This document shows positions 2,859 through 50,788 of a DNA stretch of 64,000 nt, one piece after another (position 1 is the first letter of the stretch; each line of letters opens with the position of its first letter). The stretch is taken from positions 3,078 to 67,077 of the forward strand of contig JACROC010000005.1 of NCBI GenBank assembly GCA_016214655.1, read 5' to 3'. Under the pieces are notes generated by a model. That model saw nothing but the letters and a program-made list of their open reading frames with translations, made no database searches and was not told the origin of the DNA. Source of the stretch: Candidatus Harrisonbacteria bacterium (GTDB lineage Bacteria; Patescibacteriota; Minisyncoccia; UBA6257; 02-FULL-45-10c). A program made the translations under genes and the position numbers.

Positions 2859-3620
2859 CTATAGGTAGCCTGTTTGTTTCAGCCATTTGATATTTTCCCA
2901 CTCCCAAAGTTTTTTCGCTCCCAGAAATGCCTGAAAATCTTCTTTCCAAAACGGAAATTCTTGAAGTTCAGTAATGCCAGTTAAGTCTGACCATTGGTGC
3001 GCGCTTTCCTCGCAGGGTTTGGATTTTCCTCGGCGGATTTTATTTCTTCCGCCTTTGGGACGCATAGTTGCTTTGCATTGGAGGCAAGTCTTTATTTGGT
3101 CAATGCGGAGAATCCAGCGGGTTTCTAAACTCGGCAATTCTGCGAGAAGCGCTTCAATATAGGCGGAGGTTTGCAGATTATAATCCCGGTAAATGGCTTG
3201 AGAGGTTTTAATGTCCAAAACTCCGAATTTGCCGTCAATTAAAGCCAGGGTGTCTATGGTTCCGGCGTAGCGGTGTTCCGGGTGAAAAATCCTTTTTTCC
3301 ACGAACTCTTTGTCAACGTGGATATTTCGTTCATCCAAGAAATTTAAAAAGCCATTGATGGCCGGCGCAATCTCCACGGGTATTTCCGGTTTTTCTCCGA
3401 CCAGAAATTTTTCGGTAACTTCGTGGATTAAAGTCCCTTCTTTGGCGGAATTTTCCGTCATTTCTCTGGCGGCATTATAACTGGCAGCTTCGCCATAGAA
3501 TCGGTAGAGAGCGGGCTTGGATTTAATTTCCACGATTTTAGTTACGCGCGGATACCAATGACCGTCAATTTCATAACCGCATTTTTCTTTAAAATCTTCT
3601 GCGTTTTTAAAGTCGTACAT
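2859..3620 (-). CDS. PD-(D/E)xK nuclease with Cas4/RecB-like Cys cluster (orphan Cas4-like)
   Basis: Has a D..(D/E)xK core (GTIDTLALIDGKFGVLDIKTS). One N-terminal Cys (KCGYE) plus a C-terminal C-x2-C...C cluster (TCLQCK...KPC) resembles a Cas4-type Fe-S ligand set. No CRISPR array or other cas genes in the window. Confidence 0.55.
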   Translation of the reverse strand: MYDFKNAEDFKEKCGYEIDGHWYPRVTKIVEIKSKPALYRFYGEAASYNAAREMTENSAKEGTLIHEVTEKFLVGEKPEIPVEIAPAINGFLNFLDERNIHVDKEFVEKRIFHPEHRYAGTIDTLALIDGKFGVLDIKTSQAIYRDYNLQTSAYIEALLAELPSLETRWILRIDQIKTCLQCKATMRPKGGRNKIRRGKSKPCEESAHQWSDLTGITELQEFPFWKEDFQAFLGAKKLWEWENIKWLKQTGYL

Positions 3621-3731: not shown

Positions 3732-5333
3732 ATGGCAGAAAAAAAACAACCAACAGCTTTAATTATTTTTGACGGTTTTGGCATTACCGTTGAGAAGAGG
3801 GGTAATGCCATTGCCGCGGCCAAAACTCCCAATTTAAATCAAATCAGCCAATATTATCCCGGTACTACTTTGCGGGCTTCCGGCGTTGAGGTCGGTTTAG
3901 CCTGGGGAGAAATGGGCAGTTCGGAAGTCGGCCACGCCAATATGGGCGCGGGATTGGTAGTCTATCAGAACCTGGAAAAAATTAATTTAGCCATCCGTGA
4001 TGGCTCTTTTGCTCAGCTCCCAGCTTGGAAGAGGCTAGCTGATCACGCCGTTAAAAATAACTCCAATATTCATTTAATGGGGCTTCTATCTAACGGCGGC
4101 GTCCATTCCCATATTGAGCACATTCTGGCTATTTTACGCAATATTAAAGATTTGAATTATAAAGGCAAGGTTTTTATCCACGCTTTTACTGACGGCCAGG
4201 ATGTGGCTCCGCAATCTGCTTTGATATTTTTGAGTATCCTAAAGGAAGAAATGAGTAAAATTAAAATCGGCGAGATAGCGACTGTGATGGGGCGATACTA
4301 TGCAATGGATAAAAATGAGGAATGGGAACGTACTCAAAAAGCTTATGACTGCTTAACTGAAGGATCCGGAGTTAAGGCCGCGGATCCGGAACAAGCGATC
4401 CTAGACTCTTATTCTAAAGAAGTAAAAGACGAGCATATAAAGCCGGTCGTTATTGTGGATAAAAAAAATCAGCCGGTTGGCCTGGTTAAAGAAGGCGATG
4501 TTCTGATGTTTTTTAATTTCCGCGCCGATCGGGCGAGGCAGATCACCCGCTCTTTTATATTTGCCGATAAATTTGACAAGTTTCCGGTTAAAAAATTTAA
4601 AAATTTGCTGTTTGTTCCCCTGACGCAATATGGACTGGATTATCCGGTAGAGCCGGCTTTTCCTCTCCAGAATATTAAAAATCCGCTTGCCAAAGTTGTT
4701 TCTGACGCCGGAAAAACTCAATTTCATATCGCGGAAGCGGAAAAATACGCCCACGTAACTTATTTTTTCAATGGCGGTCTGGAAACACCGTTTCCAGGAG
4801 AAGATCGGGGCATTATTCCTTCCAAGAAAGTAAAAGGATTTGATGAAAAGCCGGAGATGAGCGCTCATGAGATTACCGGGCGGGTTATCTCGGAATTAGG
4901 AAAGAATAATTATGATTTGTATGTTATCAATTTTGCTAATGGCGATATTGTCGGCCACACCGGTAATTTTAAGGCCGCGGTTAAAGCGATAGAGGTGCTG
5001 GATGAGTGTATAGGTAAGATTAAAGATGAGGTTTTAAAATTAGGCGGCACGTTGGTGATAACCGGCGATCATGGCAATGTGGAAGAGATGATTAACTTAG
5101 AAACCGGCGAGACTGATAAAGAACATTCCACTAATCCGGTGCCGTTTTGGGTTATCAGCGCGGACATTAAAAAAACCTCGGCTATCGAGGGCGTAACTCA
5201 AGTTGAACCCGGCGGAATCCTGGCTGATATTTCACCGACTATTTTGGAATTGATGGGAATATCAAAGCCGGAAGAGATGACAGGGAGTAGTTTAATAAAC
5301 GTGGTTTCTTATTGTCCGCTGCCTAAGGAGTGA
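3732..5333 (+). CDS. gpmI: 2,3-bisphosphoglycerate-independent phosphoglycerate mutase
   Basis: Colinear iPGM signature (LIIFDGFG, EVGHANMGAG, TGDHGN). An extended -10 (TGGTAAAAT) lies about 25 nt upstream. Confidence 0.9.
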   Translation: MAEKKQPTALIIFDGFGITVEKRGNAIAAAKTPNLNQISQYYPGTTLRASGVEVGLAWGEMGSSEVGHANMGAGLVVYQNLEKINLAIRDGSFAQLPAWKRLADHAVKNNSNIHLMGLLSNGGVHSHIEHILAILRNIKDLNYKGKVFIHAFTDGQDVAPQSALIFLSILKEEMSKIKIGEIATVMGRYYAMDKNEEWERTQKAYDCLTEGSGVKAADPEQAILDSYSKEVKDEHIKPVVIVDKKNQPVGLVKEGDVLMFFNFRADRARQITRSFIFADKFDKFPVKKFKNLLFVPLTQYGLDYPVEPAFPLQNIKNPLAKVVSDAGKTQFHIAEAEKYAHVTYFFNGGLETPFPGEDRGIIPSKKVKGFDEKPEMSAHEITGRVISELGKNNYDLYVINFANGDIVGHTGNFKAAVKAIEVLDECIGKIKDEVLKLGGTLVITGDHGNVEEMINLETGETDKEHSTNPVPFWVISADIKKTSAIEGVTQVEPGGILADISPTILELMGISKPEEMTGSSLINVVSYCPLPKE

Positions 5334-8300
5334 AGCGCATTGGTGCTGGAGGAGGAACTGGCGGCGGAGCAGCGGGGGATTGCGGCGCAGGTGGTTGCGA
5401 CATAGGCGGCTGCGGCGTGGCCGCGGTGCCAGGTTTCATTTTAATATCCAGCGTTGGCAGGCCCGCTTTTTCTAATATCAGTGATTCAGACCGGAATGAC
5501 GCGAAGCCGGCTTTAGAGCAGGTGATATAATATTTACCGGGCGTAAGCAGGAAGTGGAAACGTCCTTGCTCATCGGTAACTTTAGTGGCTAAAAGCCAAT
5601 TTTTTTCTTCGTCAAAAATTCTGACGACCGCCAATGACAGGGGAGAGTTAGTGGCTTCATCAATAATCGTGCCGAATGGTTTGAGTAACCGGAAAGTGAA
5701 GTAGATTTTTAACGAATCTAAAATTATATAAACTATGAGCGTGAAGTAGTTCAGAAAGTTTGGGACAATAGCAAGAGAAACAATGCTGACCAGAGTTCCA
5801 AAAGCCAGCAGATACGGATTTAAAAGTTCGATAAATCTCTTAAGGGCGTTCCATATATTGACTCTCTTAAGATATTCCAGACTGATTTCTCCGATGCTCG
5901 GAGTGATGGAAAGTTCTAAGTTAAGAATTTGATCCGTTGTAGATATGGTAATAGCTTCTGTTTCAAAGGTTTCGTATCCGTTCTTAGAAACTTTAATGTA
6001 ATATTTTCCCGAACCTACTAATGCGCCAAAGCGTCCTTCTAAATCGGTAGTTTGGCTATCCTTTAATTTTTTAAACTCTGATTCATAGATTTGGATAGTT
6101 GCCGCCTGGAGAGGTTTGCCGCTTAATTTATCAATAATTCTTCCCCATGGCTTGCGCCGTTTGAACCGGATTAAGCCGAGTAAATAAAATCTGCTCAAAC
6201 TTAATGTTTGAAGCACTTGGGAAAGATTAATTGCGAAAGTGGCGCTGCCGGCAGTAGCGGTAACAGTTACTGCTCCGGCAGTTGCGGTAGAAACGGTTAT
6301 GGAAACTGGTGTTGCAATATCGTCCACTGTTTTTCGCGTGCCCGGATCTTTCCTTAATATTGCGACGGTTTTCTGAACCTCGCTATTTAATACTTTTAAT
6401 GATTCGGTGAATTTAAAACCCTTGGAGATTATTATATTAACCGTGGAATTTGGCGGAAGATTTTCAGCGTTCCATTTGACATTATATTTTTTCCCGATAG
6501 TTAAAGTTTCTCCGCCATTCGGATATAGGAGTTTAATTGACGGACCGCCGGCAGTTTGGGCGTAAGCAACCAACTGGTTAGCGGTAAAAATTTTTCCGAG
6601 TGATGCCGGTATAAATAAACTGCTAATTTCTCCTTCTGTATTTTGCAAAGCGGCCAAAGAAGCAACTAAGTTGAAAGGCGCATCACTGCTATCCTGAATT
6701 GACGAATCGGCAGAGGAGACCACGGTTATTCTGTAGTCGCTGCCCGGGGTAAGCGCTAAGGTGCCAACTTCGCTGGCCAGAACTCCCTTTGAAGTGCTCC
6801 AGGTATGCCGTCCGGTATTTGGAGCGTCGCTTACGATTATTGCAATCCCAGCAGATCCGGTAGTGATGCCTTTAAATGTTTCCAGGAAGCCAGTTGTTAC
6901 TGCATTTCCGATTTCTGCCGCTTCTGCACCAAGGCGGCGGACAGTTTCCAGGGCTTCAGCTGTGGAAACCCGAGCTTCGGCGGCTTCAATAATAGCGTTT
7001 AAAGAATTCGTTGTGATGGCGGTGATATCCAGTCCGGCGGTTTGCGCCTCAGCTAATTCTATAATGATATTGGTGAAGGCGATGGAGCTGATGTCTGAAA
7101 TATTTACCCCTTGGTCTGCGGCCGCATCTAAAGCGGTAATGATAGTGCTTAATGCTTTTGAATCAAGGGTGCTTACATTAACGCCGGAGGTTTGCGCTGA
7201 ACTAAGACCCTGAATAAATAACGACATAACCTCACTATCAATTGTTGTTAGATTTACGCCGGTACTGGCGGCGATATCTATCGCTTGTATCGTGGCAGCT
7301 AGCACTGCGCTATCAACGGCTGAAATGCCGGCGCGTGTTTCAGCAGCCGCATCCATAGCCAGAATGACCGATGAGATGGTTTGGGTATTAAGTGTAGTTA
7401 CATCAACCCCACTCGTCGAGAGCGTATCTACTGCCTGAATAACCGATGATAAAGCTTCGGTATTAATTGTCGTGACATCTGTTCCTTCGGTCGCCGAGGT
7501 ATTAACTGCCTGAATTACTGAAATAAGAGTTTGGGTATTAATTGCGGAAATATCCACGCCGGCTGTTGAAGCCGCGTCTACTGCTTCCACGACCGCCGCT
7601 AATGATTGGGTATCTATTGAAGCAACATCGGTTCCAGTATTTGCGGCAGTGTTTAGAGTTTCAATTACTGTTACGAGGGTATCGCTATTAAGCGTAGTAA
7701 CATCTGATCCTATGTCGGCGTTGCTATCCACCGCTTGTACAACCGCAGCCAGGGTTGTGGCATCGATTGTTGATACATCCAGCCCGGCCGTTGCGCTAAG
7801 TTCTACCGCCTGAAGAACAGCGCTTAATGTATCGTTGCTAATAGTGCTAGTTTCCGTGCCTTCTGCGGCCGACTGCGCTACGGCTTCGGTAACGGCGGTG
7901 ATAGTTTCTGCGCTTGCCGTAACACCAGTTGTTTCTACTGCCGTGGAGACGCTAGTTTCGGCTGTTGCAGTTTGTTCGGTTGTTGGCGTAGGAGTCGGAG
8001 ATGGCGTCGGTGTCGGTTCTGGACTTGGTGCCGGAGCCGGGGCTGGAGCTGGTGTCGGTTCTGGACTTGGTGCCGGAGCCGGCGTTGGAGCCGGTGCCGG
8101 AGCTGGCGTTGGAGTGGGAGATGTTCCTGCACCCGCGCCCGCTCCACCACCGCCACCACCTCCACCGCCGCCTCCACCAGTAGTGCAAGTGGTTGATTCT
8201 GGAGTAATAGTGTAGGTCAAAGATCCGCCGCTGGATGGCATGGTGATAGTTAGGGTGTTTTTGGTGTCGCTGCAGCTGGTGGTTAGGTAATCTGTTCGTG

Positions 8301-8544
8301 AAGCAGTGAGAACTCTCCGGTTGGCAGAGCTGATGCTAAAGCGCTGGTTCGGCGCCATTATGATGGTAAAACTGTTTTCGTCAAAGGCGATTTCGTCTAA
8401 AAGATTAGAACCACTTTCCACATCTAAAAGAATTCCAGCGACGGAAAGCTGGACTTCTCCGGGAGTTAATTCAAAATCCGCAAGCGCCGTGCCGGATAAT
8501 AAAAGCGATAGCAATAATAATCCCACCCCTGCTTTTTTGACCAT
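5323..8544 (-). CDS. giant secreted/surface repeat protein (1073 aa)
   Basis: Signal peptide, poly-Gly run, long Pro-Thr/Pro-Ala linker, and about 14 tandem ~28-aa repeats (consensus about TxGxDVxTIxxxxLxxVIQAVD). It has two carboxypeptidase-regulatory-like beta-sandwich segments (VTDEQGRFHF..PGKYYI and LEGRFGALVGSGKYYIKV) flanking a hydrophobic TM block, and a Pro-rich C-terminal tail. Confidence 0.85.
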   Translation of the reverse strand: MVKKAGVGLLLLSLLLSGTALADFELTPGEVQLSVAGILLDVESGSNLLDEIAFDENSFTIIMAPNQRFSISSANRRVLTASRTDYLTTSCSDTKNTLTITMPSSGGSLTYTITPESTTCTTGGGGGGGGGGGGAGAGAGTSPTPTPAPAPAPTPAPAPSPEPTPAPAPAPAPSPEPTPTPSPTPTPTTEQTATAETSVSTAVETTGVTASAETITAVTEAVAQSAAEGTETSTISNDTLSAVLQAVELSATAGLDVSTIDATTLAAVVQAVDSNADIGSDVTTLNSDTLVTVIETLNTAANTGTDVASIDTQSLAAVVEAVDAASTAGVDISAINTQTLISVIQAVNTSATEGTDVTTINTEALSSVIQAVDTLSTSGVDVTTLNTQTISSVILAMDAAAETRAGISAVDSAVLAATIQAIDIAASTGVNLTTIDSEVMSLFIQGLSSAQTSGVNVSTLDSKALSTIITALDAAADQGVNISDISSIAFTNIIIELAEAQTAGLDITAITTNSLNAIIEAAEARVSTAEALETVRRLGAEAAEIGNAVTTGFLETFKGITTGSAGIAIIVSDAPNTGRHTWSTSKGVLASEVGTLALTPGSDYRITVVSSADSSIQDSSDAPFNLVASLAALQNTEGEISSLFIPASLGKIFTANQLVAYAQTAGGPSIKLLYPNGGETLTIGKKYNVKWNAENLPPNSTVNIIISKGFKFTESLKVLNSEVQKTVAILRKDPGTRKTVDDIATPVSITVSTATAGAVTVTATAGSATFAINLSQVLQTLSLSRFYLLGLIRFKRRKPWGRIIDKLSGKPLQAATIQIYESEFKKLKDSQTTDLEGRFGALVGSGKYYIKVSKNGYETFETEAITISTTDQILNLELSITPSIGEISLEYLKRVNIWNALKRFIELLNPYLLAFGTLVSIVSLAIVPNFLNYFTLIVYIILDSLKIYFTFRLLKPFGTIIDEATNSPLSLAVVRIFDEEKNWLLATKVTDEQGRFHFLLTPGKYYITCSKAGFASFRSESLILEKAGLPTLDIKMKPGTAATPQPPMSQPPAPQSPAAPPPVPPPAPMRFTP

Positions 8545-11240: not shown

Positions 11241-11352
11241 AATTTATGTATTTTAGGCTTTTAAACGAATATCAGTTTTCTCAGCTAGTTGAAGAACCCA
11301 TCGTTTAAAGTAAATGAAAAGCCGCTCCGATGAGCCATCGGAGCGGCTTGCT

Positions 11353-12057
11353 CTAGTGAGGCATGATGCACTTGTACTGGATGTCGCCCTTGATCCGGCG
11401 GGGCAGCAGGTCTCGTTTCGGCTTTTCCGTATTGCCGCCTTGCTTGCTTTTCTCGCATGCCAGTCTGGCGCGTGCCAGCGATCTTTGCTGGGAAACACCG
11501 CCGTTGTTCAGCCAGTTATTCACTATCCCGGTGCAGAACTCCAAATCGCCGGTCTCGATCATTTTGCAGTGATCGAAATCGCCGATTTCGTCTGCTTTTT
11601 CTTCGGCTTGTAGCTTCATGTGTTCCTGGAGATACCGTAGGGGATAGTAGGCGTGCAGCGTTTCGTGGCAGCCGACATCGTTCATGGTTGCCTCGAAGTT
11701 TGACTGGTCGTAGTTGAGGTCCAGGATCGAGCGATAATATATTTCTATCACTCGTTTTTCGAACATGCCATTTACCCAGACATCATACTGCACTCCCAGT
11801 ACATTAGCTTCGACGCCTTTCACCTTGGTGTACGGTTTTAAGACTATTTCCGGGTGCGGAGCGTCAACGGGTATGCCGAGACGCAGGCGCACTGCATCTG
11901 AGACGGTTTTCCCAAGGTCCAGATCATAGGTGAATTGAAATGGCTCTTCCACTATGATCTTTCTCCGGTCGGTTGTGTGCCTGATTTGAAGATTGGTGCA
12001 TCCCAGATAGGGAAGCACCAATGCGGCCATCAGCCAGAAGCGTATGTGGGTTTTCAT
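11353..12057 (-). CDS. lipoprotein with HExxH motif (putative zinc metallopeptidase), on a GC-rich islet
   Basis: Lipobox signal peptide (LVLPYLGC) and an HETLH zinc-binding-type motif. Strong SD (AAGGAGGT). Local GC is clearly above the window background. Confidence 0.7.
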   Translation of the reverse strand: MKTHIRFWLMAALVLPYLGCTNLQIRHTTDRRKIIVEEPFQFTYDLDLGKTVSDAVRLRLGIPVDAPHPEIVLKPYTKVKGVEANVLGVQYDVWVNGMFEKRVIEIYYRSILDLNYDQSNFEATMNDVGCHETLHAYYPLRYLQEHMKLQAEEKADEIGDFDHCKMIETGDLEFCTGIVNNWLNNGGVSQQRSLARARLACEKSKQGGNTEKPKRDLLPRRIKGDIQYKCIMPH

Positions 12058-12098
12058 CAGTTTACCTCCTTGCGCTAAATTTTCAAGCTTTCAATTAC

Positions 12099-12127
12099 AT
12101 TATATAGTAATTTTTATCATTTGTCAA
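12099..12127 (-). promoter_or_regulatory. consensus sigma70-type promoter (TTGACA-17-TATAAT) for the 11353..12057 gene
   Basis: Minus-strand reading is TTGACAaatgataaaaattactaTATAAT followed by GCGCAAGGAGGTAAACTG-ATG. Confidence 0.6.
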
Positions 12128-35763: not shown

Positions 35764-36168
35764 TTAGGGGTCATAATATAGCGGCTTGCGGTCGGATGTA
35801 TTTCTAAGACAATATTCTACGTACCTTACGCGTTTCCACTTTATTCCTATGGCGGGCCAGTCTTCAACGCGAAACCAATCACCTGTTCTTGCACTGTTTA
35901 CTTTGTCAATTTTTTCATAAAAACGTTCCCCATCAAGATGGTATAAATAAATTCCTTTTTCGTTGCTAGTTAGGAATTTACCACAAATCGGCACTAAATC
36001 ATGTTCATCATTTTCTACGGTAACTAATAAAACCTCTCCTTGTTTAACGAGTGTATTCAGGCTTTTTCGTTCCTGTTTTAGTTGTTTAGTATCACTACCC
36101 AAACTTGCGCAACTGCTTATAGTAAGAGCTAAAAATAAGCTAATTGACACTTTACCCGCGTTTTTCAT
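35764..36168 (-). CDS. lipoprotein (134 aa)
   Basis: Signal peptide with lipobox (LALTISSC). Confidence 0.55.
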   Translation of the reverse strand: MKNAGKVSISLFLALTISSCASLGSDTKQLKQERKSLNTLVKQGEVLLVTVENDEHDLVPICGKFLTSNEKGIYLYHLDGERFYEKIDKVNSARTGDWFRVEDWPAIGIKWKRVRYVEYCLRNTSDRKPLYYDP

Positions 36169-36234
36169 ACCCCGCCGTTATTTATTAAAGAGCGATTGCT
36201 ATATATTAGGACTAATTCATATTCTTGTCAATCA

Positions 36235-36266
36235 TTGACAGAATTACATAATTTATGTTAGTATAT
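36235..36266 (+). promoter_or_regulatory. promoter (TTGACA..TAGTAT) overlapped by the palindrome TTGTCAATcATTGACA
   Basis: cttgtcaatcattgacagaattacataatttatgttagtatatat. The perfect -35 element lies inside an 8+8 inverted repeat, a candidate operator. Confidence 0.5.
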
Positions 36267-36346
36267 ATTCGAGAGAGGATTTGCGTCCTCTCCTGCTATG
36301 CCGAGAGAGGCATAGTAAAACTACGAGAGAGTAGCAAGGAGGGAAC

Positions 36347-36829
36347 ATGAAGTTCGTTAAAAACTTCGTAAGAGTAGAGGCTCTGGCGCTCCAGCGGGCG
36401 CTCGAGCTTCAGAAGGAAACCGACCGCGGCAGTCTCTACCTGGCAAGTTCTGAGCTCCAGAATGAGTTTGGCTGGGCAGTAGATCTGGCCAGCCGCGGAG
36501 AAGATGTTTGCGACCTTGAGGGTAAGGTTGTGGGACATCGAGAACTCTCCCCTGCGCAACTTGGTCTTGCAGGAGAGATCGATGAATTCACGGCCGTTGA
36601 CTTTTCCGGCCGCGGCGATGCATATCTTGAGCGACTATACCTTTTCGCTTTCAACGATCCGAAGATACACAAAAGATCGCTTTTTGTGTTCGTGAAGATC
36701 GTGAGGCAGACAAGAGACAGCGATTGGGAGATTGTAGTGGAATCCGCCTGGAAGGCCAACGATGGCGTGTATTCAAACCAGGACAATCTTATCTACCGAG
36801 ATTTTCGAAAGAAGGAATTGGTTCACTGA
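36347..36829 (+). CDS. acidic hypothetical protein (160 aa) on a GC-rich islet
   Basis: Strong SD (AAGGAGGG). GC is far above the window background. The leader carries three hairpins, each displaying CGAGAGAG. Confidence 0.65.
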   Translation: MKFVKNFVRVEALALQRALELQKETDRGSLYLASSELQNEFGWAVDLASRGEDVCDLEGKVVGHRELSPAQLGLAGEIDEFTAVDFSGRGDAYLERLYLFAFNDPKIHKRSLFVFVKIVRQTRDSDWEIVVESAWKANDGVYSNQDNLIYRDFRKKELVH

Positions 36830-36833
36830 TATC

Positions 36834-36871
36834 AGCCCCAGGAAGGTAAAACTTCCTGGGGCATTTTTTTA
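36834..36871 (+). terminator. strong rho-independent terminator
   Basis: gccccaggaag-gtaaaac-ttcctggggc followed by attttttt. Confidence 0.7.
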
Positions 36872-50248: not shown

Positions 50249-50788
50249 TTATTTACTAAATGGTATTCCTAATTGTTTATACAAATCCATCGATTTTTCT
50301 CGATCGCGAATTTTAGGCACTAAAGTGATTTCCATTCCAAAATTTACTTTAGTGATATCCAAGCTTACCTCGGGAAAAACCGAATGTTCTTTTAAACCGA
50401 TAGTCAAATTGCCGTTTTTATCCACCGCTTCTTTTTTGATTCCGCGGAAGTCACGCAAGCGTGGCAGGGCAACATTAACCAATTTCTTTAGAAATTCATT
50501 CATTCTTTCTTGCCGCAGAGTAGTTTTTAAGCCAACCACTGTTCCGGTCCTTAATTTAAAACCGGCAATAGATTTTTTAGCTGGCCGGACAGCCGGTTTT
50601 TGTCCGGTGATCGCGCTTAACTCCTTGGTTAATTCAGGTAAAATCTTATCAAAATTCGGCTGGCCCGAAAGACGTCCAGTGCCGACGTTGATTACAATTT
50701 TCTCAAGTTTTTTATTACTTTCATTCATAAGATTGAATTTATAATACAGCTTTACACTTTTTGCAATAACGGATTTTAGCATCACCAT
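50249..50788 (-). CDS. rplE: 50S ribosomal protein L5
   Basis: KLEKIVINVGTG. The N-terminus (LKSV...KFN) aligns with bacterial L5, so the 5' end overlaps the rplX 3' end by about 50 nt in another frame. Confidence 0.85.
   Translation of the reverse strand: MVMLKSVIAKSVKLYYKFNLMNESNKKLEKIVINVGTGRLSGQPNFDKILPELTKELSAITGQKPAVRPAKKSIAGFKLRTGTVVGLKTTLRQERMNEFLKKLVNVALPRLRDFRGIKKEAVDKNGNLTIGLKEHSVFPEVSLDITKVNFGMEITLVPKIRDREKSMDLYKQLGIPFSK

What the first reader, a model, noticed from the sequence alone, without database searches (positions are those of the whole stretch)
36225..36870. Second GC-rich islet: acidic 160-aa protein with an operator-like palindrome over its -35 and a leader carrying three CGAGAGAG-displaying hairpins
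The palindrome TTGTCAATcATTGACA overlaps a perfect TTGACA. The 5' UTR has three direct repeats of CGAGAGAG(G). One sits in a stem (gagagagga/tcctctc) and two sit in hairpin loops (ctatgcc-GAGAGAG-gcatag, cuac-GAGAGAG-uag). A strong SD and a strong terminator follow. This looks like a tightly regulated, probably foreign, gene with a protein-binding leader (repeated loop motifs) and a repressor operator.
Basis: seen in the sequence. Interest (0 to 1): 0.6.

Follow-up and report, generated by a model that had tools for sequence, protein, structure and literature searches.

The report
Conserved twin-hairpin leader on orphan gene
A stand-alone gene for an uncharacterised small protein in a Parcubacteria (CPR) genome has an mRNA leader in which two hairpins with near-identical purine loops sit just before the ribosome-binding site; this leader recurs, with compensatory stem changes, in front of every homologue recovered and matches no catalogued RNA family.

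Summary

The ORF (36347-36829) is a real gene. dN/dS is 0.14 against an 86%-identical syntenic relative. About 25 homologues exist, all unannotated. The AlphaFold model is confident (pLDDT 93) but has no Foldseek match.

Hairpins 2 and 3 belong to a conserved 5'-UTR motif: two stems with G-A-N-N-G-A hexaloops, the second 1-3 nt before the SD. All 12 recovered loci have it. Of the paired cells, 97.5% pair, and all 11 pairs show compensatory changes. A held-out locus scores 38 bits. Rfam 15 has no match.

Hairpin 1, which holds the first CGAGAGAG copy, is lineage-specific and lies at the predicted 5' end. Five homologues instead pair their 5' end (GAUGGGUGG) with the 3' UTR (CCACCCAUC).

The palindrome is two back-to-back TTGACA -35 boxes of divergent promoters. 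No other locus has it.

The GC3 excess is real (z 2.9) and recurs in 7 of 11 scored loci, with unrelated neighbours each time.

My best reading is a translational operator or stability leader recognised through its loops, possibly by the gene's own product. The binding partner is unknown.

The parts
36203..36231 (-). Promoter-like site for the divergent lipoprotein gene (35764-36168, - strand): TTGACA (36231-36226), 17 nt, TAATAT (36208-36203). Its -35 box is the left arm of the palindrome.
   Evidence: Both hexamers are identical in L001, where the upstream gene is also a - strand lipoprotein (MGRRFEILASLVLILTLSGC, read).
36226..36240 (.). Palindrome TGTCAAT-c-ATTGACA, made of two back-to-back -35 hexamers.
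   Evidence: In L001 only TGTCAA-cta-TTGACA is kept. The 10 other homologue promoters have no palindrome.
36235..36264 (+). Promoter of the gene: TTGACA, 18 nt, TG-extended -10 (TGtTAGTAT). The predicted transcription start is about 36270-36272.
   Evidence: The same TTGAC(A/T) ... TGnTAnnAT layout occurs in 11 of the 12 loci; L010, which lies in an operon, has none in the stretch shown. The start site is inferred, not mapped.
36273..36292 (+). Hairpin 1: 8-bp stem GAGAGGAU/GUCCUCUC with loop UUGC, 1-3 nt from the predicted 5' end. It contains the first CGAGAGAG copy (36270-36277). It is lineage-specific and is read as a 5'-terminal protective stem-loop.
   Evidence: In L001 the two stem changes keep pairing (U-G to U-A, G-C to G-U), but the repeat becomes GAAGAGAG. 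L008, L009 and L057 have a different local hairpin at the same place. L002-L005 and L007 have 5'/3'-UTR pairing instead.
36294..36317 (+). Hairpin A of the conserved motif: 7 core pairs (36296-36302 with 36309-36315) plus 2 basal pairs, and hexaloop GAGAGA (36303-36308).
   Evidence: All 7 pairs change on both sides across the 11 aligned loci. The loop is GARAGA in all 11; in L010 it is a 10-nt loop, GAGAAGGAUU.
36321..36334 (+). Hairpin B of the conserved motif: CUAC/GUAG stem with hexaloop GAGAGA (36325-36330), ending 1 nt before the SD.
   Evidence: All 4 pairs covary and 100% of cells pair. The loop is G-A-N-N-G-A in 11 of 12 loci (AAAAGA in L003).
36295..36349 (+). Extent of the covariance-model match (hairpin A, linker, hairpin B, SD, ATG). 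It is the only significant match in the window (next best 7.9 bits, E 8.9).
   Evidence: 64.5 bits.
36336..36343 (+). Shine-Dalgarno sequence AAGGAGGG, 3 nt before the ATG.
   Evidence: AGGAG is found 6-7 nt after loop B in every locus.
36347..36829 (+). CDS for a 160-aa protein of an uncharacterised family (NCBI MBI4991901.1, HZB99_01670, Candidatus Harrisonbacteria).
   Evidence: identity and source; dN/dS 0.14; 20 hits, 19 of them family members (one spurious repeat protein); pLDDT 93.4. No Pfam, NCBIfam, PHROG, PADLOC or PDB match.
36835..36870 (+). Intrinsic terminator: 11-bp stem with a T run.
   Evidence: Conserved in L001.

Best explanation
The region is a self-contained single-gene transcription unit (promoter, structured leader, ORF, terminator). 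It encodes a small, mostly acidic alpha+beta protein of an undescribed family, so far found only in Parcubacteria (CPR) bacteria and unassigned metagenome contigs.

The mRNA has a family-wide leader design with three parts:
1. A duplex at the predicted 5' end. In this window it is local hairpin 1; in five relatives the 5' end pairs with the 3' UTR just before the terminator.
2. Hairpin A.
3. Hairpin B, which abuts the Shine-Dalgarno sequence.

Both hairpins display a G-A-N-N-G-A hexaloop, usually closed by C-G.

Proposed mechanism (inferred): the two loops are recognition sites for one partner that binds twice or as a dimer. Occupancy of hairpin B, 1-3 nt from the SD, would control 30S access, making this a translational operator. 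The 5'-terminal duplex would protect the message from 5'-end-dependent decay. The motif is seen only with this gene family, and the gene has no conserved neighbour, so the simplest candidate for the partner is the encoded protein itself (autogenous control).

The palindrome over the -35 is not part of this. It is two divergent -35 hexamers.
For: Shown:
- Real gene: dN/dS 0.14, dS 0.57, and an in-frame 15-nt indel against L001. About 25 homologues at 26-47% identity. AlphaFold model with pLDDT 93.4 and pTM 0.86.
- Leader under constraint: 5 of 76 transcribed leader positions differ from L001, against 40% difference at synonymous sites.
- All 12 recovered loci show hairpins A and B upstream of AGGAG.
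- On a MAFFT alignment of the real sequences, 97.5% of cells pair (71% when shuffled; 21-50% when the structure is slid). All 11 pairs have changes on both sides. Covariation score is 0.888 against 0.316.
- Loop positions 1, 2, 5 and 6 are near-invariant while the stems change completely.
- Covariance model: training members score 52-70 bits. L010, which was left out of training, scores 38.2 bits (E 1e-8). The 46 chance loci picked by pattern score 22 bits or less. The window has one significant hit.
- 5'/3'-UTR duplexes of -18 to -23 kcal/mol occur in L002-L005 and L007, and are the best of all windows in 4 of those 5 loci. The position after GGGUGG covaries (G-C three times, A-U twice), and G-U wobbles occur on the sense strand only (read).
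- No conserved neighbour gene.

Inferred: the transcription start position, the protective role of the 5' duplex, binding of the loops by a partner, and the identity of that partner.
Against: - No experiment and no transcript data are available.
- The protein is acidic (pI about 5 in 20 of 26 members) and shows no recognisable RNA-binding fold. Foldseek's best E is 0.18 against PDB and 0.19 against BFVD.
- The SD is mostly unpaired in the predicted folds for the window, L001, L004 and L009, so nothing in the RNA alone shows an OFF state.
- The same architecture would also serve constitutive high expression.
- Only 12 loci are available, several from one sequencing project.
Confidence: 0.4

Rival explanations
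1. Constitutive expression and stability cassette. The hairpins have no dedicated regulator. The 5' duplex and the hairpins protect the message from RNases and keep the SD from being sequestered. The purine loops (GAAAG or GAGAG, partly complementary to a CUUUC-type 16S 3' tail) would act as ribosome standby or enhancer sites.
For: - Every signal looks maximised: consensus -35, TG-extended -10, long SD, strong terminator, and a 5'-terminal duplex.
- Whole-mRNA folding z is -5.9 for the window and -5.2 for L004.
- The coding sequences fold better than synonymous-codon shuffles: mean z about -2.0, and at or below -1.97 in 7 of 10, against -0.77 for 16 control genes.
- The SD is largely unpaired in the window fold.
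Against: - Insulating hairpins alone would not need loop positions 1, 2, 5 and 6 to stay fixed while the stems turn over.
- Loop B variants GAAUGA, GACAGA and AAAAGA break complementarity to a CUUUC tail.
- The host 16S 3' end is not in the window, so the pairing could not be checked.
Confidence: 0.25
2. Tandem-hairpin riboswitch, with the architecture of guanidine-II (mini-ykkC). Two similar hairpins with a conserved loop and a variable linker lie directly upstream of the SD. A small ligand would bridge the loops and change SD accessibility.
For: - Two hairpins with the same conserved loop.
- The linker varies from 5 to 31 nt, and some loci have an extra hairpin in it.
- The position next to the SD is fixed.
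- A high-information motif with strong covariation.
Against: - The loops are all purine, so Watson-Crick loop-loop pairing as in guanidine-II is impossible.
- The motif is tied to a single gene family of unknown function, not to transporters or enzymes.
- No alternative SD-sequestering fold is conserved.
- No Rfam hit even at E up to 10.
Confidence: 0.15
3. One reading: a recently acquired foreign gene kept off by a repressor bound to the palindromic operator over the -35.
For: - A perfect 7+1+7 palindrome overlaps the -35.
- GC and GC3 are about 2.9 sd above the window's genes.
- Homologues sit in unrelated contexts.
Against: - Each arm is a consensus -35 hexamer with a properly spaced -10 on its own strand.
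- In L001 only the hexamers are kept and the inner pair of the palindrome is lost.
- The 10 other homologue promoters have no palindrome.
- No regulator gene lies nearby.
- Synteny is conserved on both sides at dS 0.57, so acquisition is not recent.
Confidence: 0.08
4. The inverted repeats that flank the gene in relatives (GATGGGTGG ... CCACCCATC) are DNA-level sites, such as inversion or recombination sites of a mobile cassette, rather than RNA pairing. The leader hairpins would be remnants of that element.
For: - 9-12-bp inverted repeats bracket the leader plus ORF in 5 loci.
- The gene is non-syntenic between lineages, and its GC3 is often far above that of its neighbours, for example 0.71 against 0.32-0.35 in L004 and 0.77 against 0.41 in L007.
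Against: - The imperfections in the repeats are G-U wobbles on the sense strand (L002, L005), which is tolerated in RNA but is a mismatch in DNA.
- The repeats sit exactly at the predicted 5' end and just before the terminator.
- No recombinase gene is nearby.
- The window and L001 lack the repeats but keep hairpins A and B.
Confidence: 0.05

Closest known systems
Guanidine-II riboswitch (mini-ykkC, Rfam RF01068)
   Same: Two small hairpins carry the same conserved loop closed by C-G. They are joined by a linker of variable length and lie just upstream of the SD. (Architecture recalled from established knowledge.)
   Different: Its loops are ACGR tetraloops that kiss through C-G pairs. Here the loops are all-purine G-A-N-N-G-A hexaloops. 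The gene association is different. No Rfam match at E up to 10.
CsrA/RsmA-type leaders and the TwoAYGGAY motif (repeated loop motifs bound by a dimeric protein)
   Same: A short motif is repeated in hairpin loops, with one site next to the SD and variable spacing. This is compatible with a dimer bridging two sites and blocking the ribosome.
   Different: Those sites need GGA in the loop. Loop A never has GGA, and loop B has it in only 2 of 12 loci (L002 GAGGGA, L010 GAAGGA). No other instance was found in the window that would suggest a regulon.
Autogenous translational operators (ribosomal-protein leaders, phage MS2 coat protein or T4 RegA operators)
   Same: A hairpin with a conserved loop next to the ribosome-binding site of one specific gene, and the element travels with that gene.
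   Different: Binding is not shown. The product is acidic and has no recognisable RNA-binding fold.
B. subtilis hbs mRNA 5'/3'-UTR interaction (PMC5737220) and S. aureus icaR (PMC3868564)
   Same: Long-range pairing between the 5' UTR and a 3'-UTR segment. In hbs it is a 14-bp interaction that modulates RNase Y cleavage. In five relatives here, 9-12 bp join the extreme 5' end to the sequence just before the terminator.
   Different: The window itself and L001 lack this pairing (-9.0 and -7.6 kcal/mol) and use a local 5' hairpin. The sequences are unrelated and the function is untested.
5'-terminal stabilising stem-loops (E. coli ompA, B. subtilis aprE and ermC leaders)
   Same: A stable hairpin within a few nucleotides of the 5' end. 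From established knowledge, this protects against 5'-end-dependent RNase E or RNase J attack.
   Different: The transcription start here is predicted only from the -10 position. The RNases of this CPR host are unknown.

Membership tests
Any Rfam 15 family | Covariance-model score at or above the gathering threshold in the leader | tested here: not met
   no hit in the whole window; with E up to 10 nothing falls in 36225-36346. The only near-threshold hit is NsiR1 on the terminator (38.1 bits against 39).
Guanidine-II riboswitch (mini-ykkC) | Two hairpins, each with an ACGR tetraloop | tested here: not met
   The loops are 6-nt GARAGA or GANNGA in all loci.
Guanidine-II riboswitch (mini-ykkC) | Tandem similar hairpins with a variable linker, upstream of the SD | tested here: met
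   (linker 5-31 nt). This is an architectural resemblance only.
CsrA/RsmA binding leader | GGA in the hairpin loops | tested here: not met
   Loop A has GGA in 0 of 11 hexaloops. Loop B has it in 2 of 12 loci.
Type III toxin-antitoxin (ToxIN-like) | Array of near-identical repeats of about 34-36 nt, then a terminator, then an endoribonuclease toxin gene | tested here: not met
   The two hairpins have different stems. There is no terminator between the leader and the ORF. PADLOC gives no hit.
Repressor operator at the promoter | Dyad symmetry conserved beyond what the promoter hexamers require | tested here: not met
   In L001 the inner palindrome pair is lost (TGTCAA-cta-TTGACA). The other loci have no palindrome.
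Repressor operator at the promoter | Protein binding to the dyad | not testable with these tools
   Needs footprinting or EMSA.
5'/3'-UTR-paired mRNAs (hbs-like) | Stable complementarity between the 5' UTR and the 3' UTR | tested here: not met
   Window -9.0 kcal/mol, against -18 to -23 in L002-L005 and L007. The feature is met in those relatives, not here.
New motif defined here (twin GANNGA-loop leader, model R1) | Hairpin A and hairpin B with G-A-N-N-G-A loops, the second 6-7 nt before AGGAG, upstream of a member of this protein family | tested here: met
   Window 36295-36349 scores 64.5 bits. Covariation.
Known protein families (Pfam, NCBIfam, PHROGs, PADLOC, PDB) | A significant profile or fold match | tested here: not met

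The most novel reading that the evidence does not exclude
The twin GANNGA-loop leader and its 160-aa product form a new, self-contained RNA-protein autoregulatory pair. The protein would bind RNA loops through a fold with no detectable relative. Alternatively, the leader is a new tandem-hairpin riboswitch class. In either case the unit is carried on a single-gene cassette that moves among CPR genomes and protects its mRNA by pairing its two ends.
Probability: 0.3. Interest if true: 0.75.

Novelty: new member of a known kind. Interest (0 to 1): 0.6.

Why it matters
CPR (Patescibacteria) genomes have almost no characterised post-transcriptional regulation and a large share of orphan genes. This locus gives a compact unit that can be tested: a 55-nt RNA motif with complete covariation support, tied one-to-one to a protein family that has a confident predicted structure but no annotation.

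If the protein binds the loops, that would define a new RNA-binding fold and operator. If a ligand binds, it would define a new riboswitch class. If neither binds, it shows how small-genome bacteria build long-lived, highly translated messages, including a natural set of mRNAs whose 5' end pairs with the 3' UTR.

It also shows that the 'operator' palindrome was a misreading of two divergent promoters.

Tried and rejected
- Rfam, at gathering thresholds and at permissive E-values, gave nothing in the leader.
- The window has no tRNA or tmRNA. L001 also has none. The T-loop-like string upstream in L001 turned out to be the signal peptide of a diverged lipoprotein gene.
- Pfam, PHROGs, PADLOC, NCBIfam, and PDB searched by sequence and by profile gave no match.
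- AlphaFold with only 2 sequences was unusable (pLDDT 47.5). With 26 sequences it gave pLDDT 93.4.
- Two protein-pattern scans of viral contigs found no relative.
- A leader DNA pattern scan of 596 Gb of genome contigs gave 36 hits, and a scan of JGI metagenomes gave 10. All are chance matches with no family ORF nearby, and all score 22 bits or less with the covariance model.
- A search for other GANNGA-loop hairpins in the window found only weak G-U-rich stems inside genes.
- I looked by eye for a pyrimidine partner of the loops (UCUCUC or UCUUUC) within the mRNAs and found nothing consistent.
- A CUCCU anti-SD-like stretch lies after the 5' hairpin in the window, L001, L008, L009 and L057 and could pair with the SD. 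It is not the minimum-energy state and is not universal.
- A K-loop or L7Ae-type reading of GA..GA was rejected because only 2 nt lie between the GA pairs.
- Literature searches for GAGAGA or GAAAGA loops returned no paper.
- Cluster look-ups gave no organism names for other family members.

Full report
**1. Observation.** The sequence at 36225-36870 is as described.

- The palindrome is TGTCAAT-c-ATTGACA at 36226-36240.
- The + strand has TTGACA (36235-36240), an 18-nt spacer, and a TG-extended TAGTAT (36256-36264).
- CGAGAGAG occurs three times (36270, 36302, 36324) and nowhere else in the 64 kb. The count is 3 against 0.8 expected, and 6 of 100 shuffles reach 3.
- By itself this is weak evidence. 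Some cluster of three identical 8-mers within 70 nt arises in 38 of 300 dinucleotide shuffles of the window.
- The SD is AAGGAGGG at 36336-36343. The ORF is 36347-36829. An 11-bp terminator at 36835-36862 is followed by a T run.
- The GC excess is real. Gene GC is 0.509 against 0.418 +/- 0.032, and GC3 is 0.559 against 0.394 +/- 0.057 (z about 2.9). Only the first islet (11353-12057) is higher.
- The protein has pI 5.3.

**2. The gene is real, and belongs to an undescribed family.**

- The product is identical to MBI4991901.1, a hypothetical protein of a Candidatus Harrisonbacteria MAG.
- A relative at about 85% nucleotide identity (L001, a 977-nt Logan contig) is syntenic on both sides. Downstream is ftsQ. 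Upstream, on the - strand, is a diverged lipoprotein gene.
- Against L001, dN/dS is 0.14 with dS 0.57. 46 of 71 differences fall at third codon positions, and the one indel is in frame.
- An exhaustive phmmer search of 1.84 billion representatives found 20 hits. One is a spurious repeat protein. A profile search added six more members.
- Family members are 139-217 aa and mostly acidic. None matches Pfam, NCBIfam, PHROGs, PADLOC or PDB.
- With the 26-sequence alignment, AlphaFold gives a confident model (pLDDT 93.4, pTM 0.86). It has an N-terminal helix, a second short helix, and seven beta strands, the last four forming a meander.

**3. The leader is a conserved RNA motif.** I recovered DNA for eleven other family members (L001-L010 and L057).

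- All twelve loci have a hairpin A of 5-9 bp. Its loop is GARAGA in eleven loci and a longer GAGAAGGAUU in L010.
- A linker of 5-31 nt follows. It is A-rich and sometimes holds an extra hairpin.
- Hairpin B has 4-6 bp. Its loop is GAGAGA, GAAAGA, GAGGGA, GAAGGA, GAAUGA, GACAGA or AAAAGA.
- AGGAG then follows 6-7 nt after loop B.
- The stems differ almost completely between loci. Examples are CUAUGCC/GGCAUAG, GCGCC/GGCGC, UCCCCUG/CAGGGGG and CUGGCGCG/CGUGCCGG.
- On a MAFFT alignment of the real sequences (A9), 97.5% of cells pair. The shuffled control gives 71.2% and the slid controls 21-50%.
- All 11 pairs show changes on both sides. The covariation score is 0.888 against 0.316, with 0 of 500 shuffles as high. 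A position-extracted alignment gives the same result.
- Loop positions 1, 2, 5 and 6 are invariant or nearly so.
- A covariance model built from eleven loci scores them at 52-70 bits. It finds L010, which was left out, at 38.2 bits (E 1e-8). The 46 unrelated loci that had been picked for matching a leader-like pattern score 22 bits or less. The window has one significant hit, at 36295-36349.
- Four database proteins (P0012, P0018, P0022, P0023) carry N-terminal extensions such as 'KLRERAKKE'. These are hairpin B plus the SD read as protein from mis-called start codons.
- Within the window lineage, the transcribed leader differs from L001 at 5 of 76 positions, while 40% of synonymous sites differ.
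- Rfam 15 has no matching family.

**4. What is not conserved.**

*The first CGAGAGAG copy.* It lies in the 5' arm of hairpin 1.
- In L001 it reads GAAGAGAG. The two changes in the 3' arm keep the pairing (U-G to U-A, G-C to G-U).
- Other loci do not have hairpin 1. L008, L009 and L057 have a different local hairpin at the same place, directly after the predicted transcription start.
- L002, L003, L004, L005 and L007 begin with GAUGGGUGG (or GGGUGGG). Their 3' UTRs carry CCACCCAUC (or CCCACCC) just before the terminator.
- The resulting 5'/3' duplexes are -18 to -23 kcal/mol and are the best of all windows in 4 of those 5 loci.
- The base pair after GGGUGG covaries (G-C three times, A-U twice). 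The imperfections are G-U wobbles on the sense strand.
- The window and L001 have no such pairing (-9.0 and -7.6 kcal/mol).
- I therefore read hairpin 1 as the local equivalent of a 5'-terminal protective duplex. This is an inference from position and from established knowledge of 5' stem-loop protection. PMC5737220 gives a characterised 5'/3'-UTR case.

*The palindrome.*
- Each arm is a consensus TTGACA with a correctly spaced -10 on its own strand. The - strand has TAATAT at 36208-36203, pointing to the lipoprotein gene at 35764-36168.
- L001 keeps both hexamers and the - strand -10 but loses the inner symmetric pair.
- None of the other ten promoters is palindromic.

**5. Context and composition.**

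- The neighbours differ in every lineage. They include ftsQ, gyrB and PHO4, LeuRS, dCMP deaminase, GatA-type amidase, PGK and a GT4 glycosyltransferase. No partner gene is conserved.
- The LeuRS next to L009 is closest to Liptonbacteria (68%) and Harrisonbacteria (58%) among named hits. At least two branches of the family therefore live in Parcubacteria.
- No relative was found in IMG/VR.
- The family gene has higher GC3 than its neighbours in 7 of 11 loci scored. Examples are 0.71 against 0.32-0.35, and 0.77 against 0.41.
- Host ribosomal-protein and EF-Tu genes in the window are not GC3-rich, so codon optimisation is an unlikely cause.
- The coding regions fold somewhat better than synonymous-codon shuffles. 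The mean z is about -2.0, against -0.77 for controls.
- The promoter layout (TTGACT, a T-rich spacer, TGnTAnnAT) is also shared between distant loci. The whole unit may therefore travel together.
- These observations fit a mobile or repeatedly transferred single-gene unit. In the window lineage, however, the gene has been resident since before a dS of 0.57.

**6. Mechanism.**

Shown: a conserved, covarying twin-hairpin leader fixed next to the SD, with loop sequence under selection, plus a 5'-terminal duplex of varying construction.

Inferred: the identical loops are contacted by one partner. Stems can drift but the loops cannot, the motif is duplicated, and hairpin B abuts the SD. Together these point to control of 30S access. 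The motif was seen only with this family, and there is no conserved neighbour or second instance in the window. The encoded protein is therefore the simplest candidate partner.

Rough weights:
- Protein-bound translational operator: about 0.4. The acidity of the product and the lack of a known RNA-binding fold count against it.
- Constitutive stability or standby-site design: about 0.25.
- Tandem-hairpin riboswitch with guanidine-II-like architecture: about 0.15.
- A DNA-level inverted-repeat cassette: about 0.05.

**7. Verdict.** The finding is a new candidate cis-regulatory RNA motif tied to a new protein family in CPR bacteria. It is of a known general kind but belongs to no known family.

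Noticed in passing
window 11353-12057 (- strand), with promoter about 12090-12125 and terminator about 11320-11350: This is the 'first GC-rich islet': a solitary 234-aa lipoprotein gene (lipobox LPYLGC). It has the highest GC (0.515) and GC3 (0.643) in the window, a consensus TTGACA/TATAAT promoter, a strong SD and a strong terminator. Its coding region folds much better than synonymous shuffles (z -3.8). It has no GANNGA-loop leader.
   Followed up: partly
window 36822-36870 (+): The terminator scores 38.1 bits against Rfam NsiR1 (gathering score 39; E 8e-6 in an 851-nt search). The L001 copy scores 20.2 bits. Most likely this is a terminator look-alike rather than a cyanobacterial sRNA homologue.
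   Followed up: partly
L002 317-330 with 916-926; L003 318-328 with 885-895; L004 1266-1278 with 1831-1843; L005 2709-2718 with 3226-3236; L007 73-84 with 645-657 (approximate): The 5' end of the predicted mRNA (GAUGGGUGG) is complementary to the 3' UTR just before the terminator (CCACCCAUC) in five homologue loci. The duplexes are -18 to -23 kcal/mol. One position covaries, and the wobbles are on the sense strand only.
   Followed up: partly
Proteins P0012, P0018, P0022, P0023 (L057 1019-1101): The database gene calls start too far upstream. The extension '..TKLRERAKKEA.M' is the leader's hairpin B plus the SD read as protein.
   Followed up: yes
L007 1-32: The contig begins with what looks like the 3' end of a tRNA gene (..GGTTCGATTCCACA..), directly upstream of the family gene's promoter. 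This may be a tRNA-adjacent insertion site. I did not verify it, because the contig end cuts the sequence.
   Followed up: no
window 8027-8096: This is the only other place in the window with three copies of an 8-mer within 70 nt (GGTGCCGGAGC-type). It lies inside the 1073-aa ORF 5323-8544 (- strand) and looks like a coding repeat.
   Followed up: no
window 36287-36295; similar positions in L001, L008, L009, L057: A CUCCU anti-SD-like stretch follows the 5' hairpin in the loci that have a local 5' hairpin. In the window, UCCUCUC could pair with AGGAGGG of the SD (7 bp with one wobble) if hairpin 1 opened. A possible alternative fold was not resolved.
   Followed up: partly
L022 6052-6345 (Candidatus Micrarchaeota MAG): A weak tblastn similarity to family member P0024 (29% over 104 aa, E 3e-5 in a small database). 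It lies far from the chance pattern match that brought the locus in.
   Followed up: no
window 36436-36786 (- strand): A 116-aa antisense ORF lies wholly inside the GC-rich gene. Most likely it is a by-product of the composition and not a gene.
   Followed up: no
window 50249-50788 (- strand): One control gene in the ribosomal-protein cluster also folds much better than its synonymous shuffles (z -3.3).
   Followed up: no
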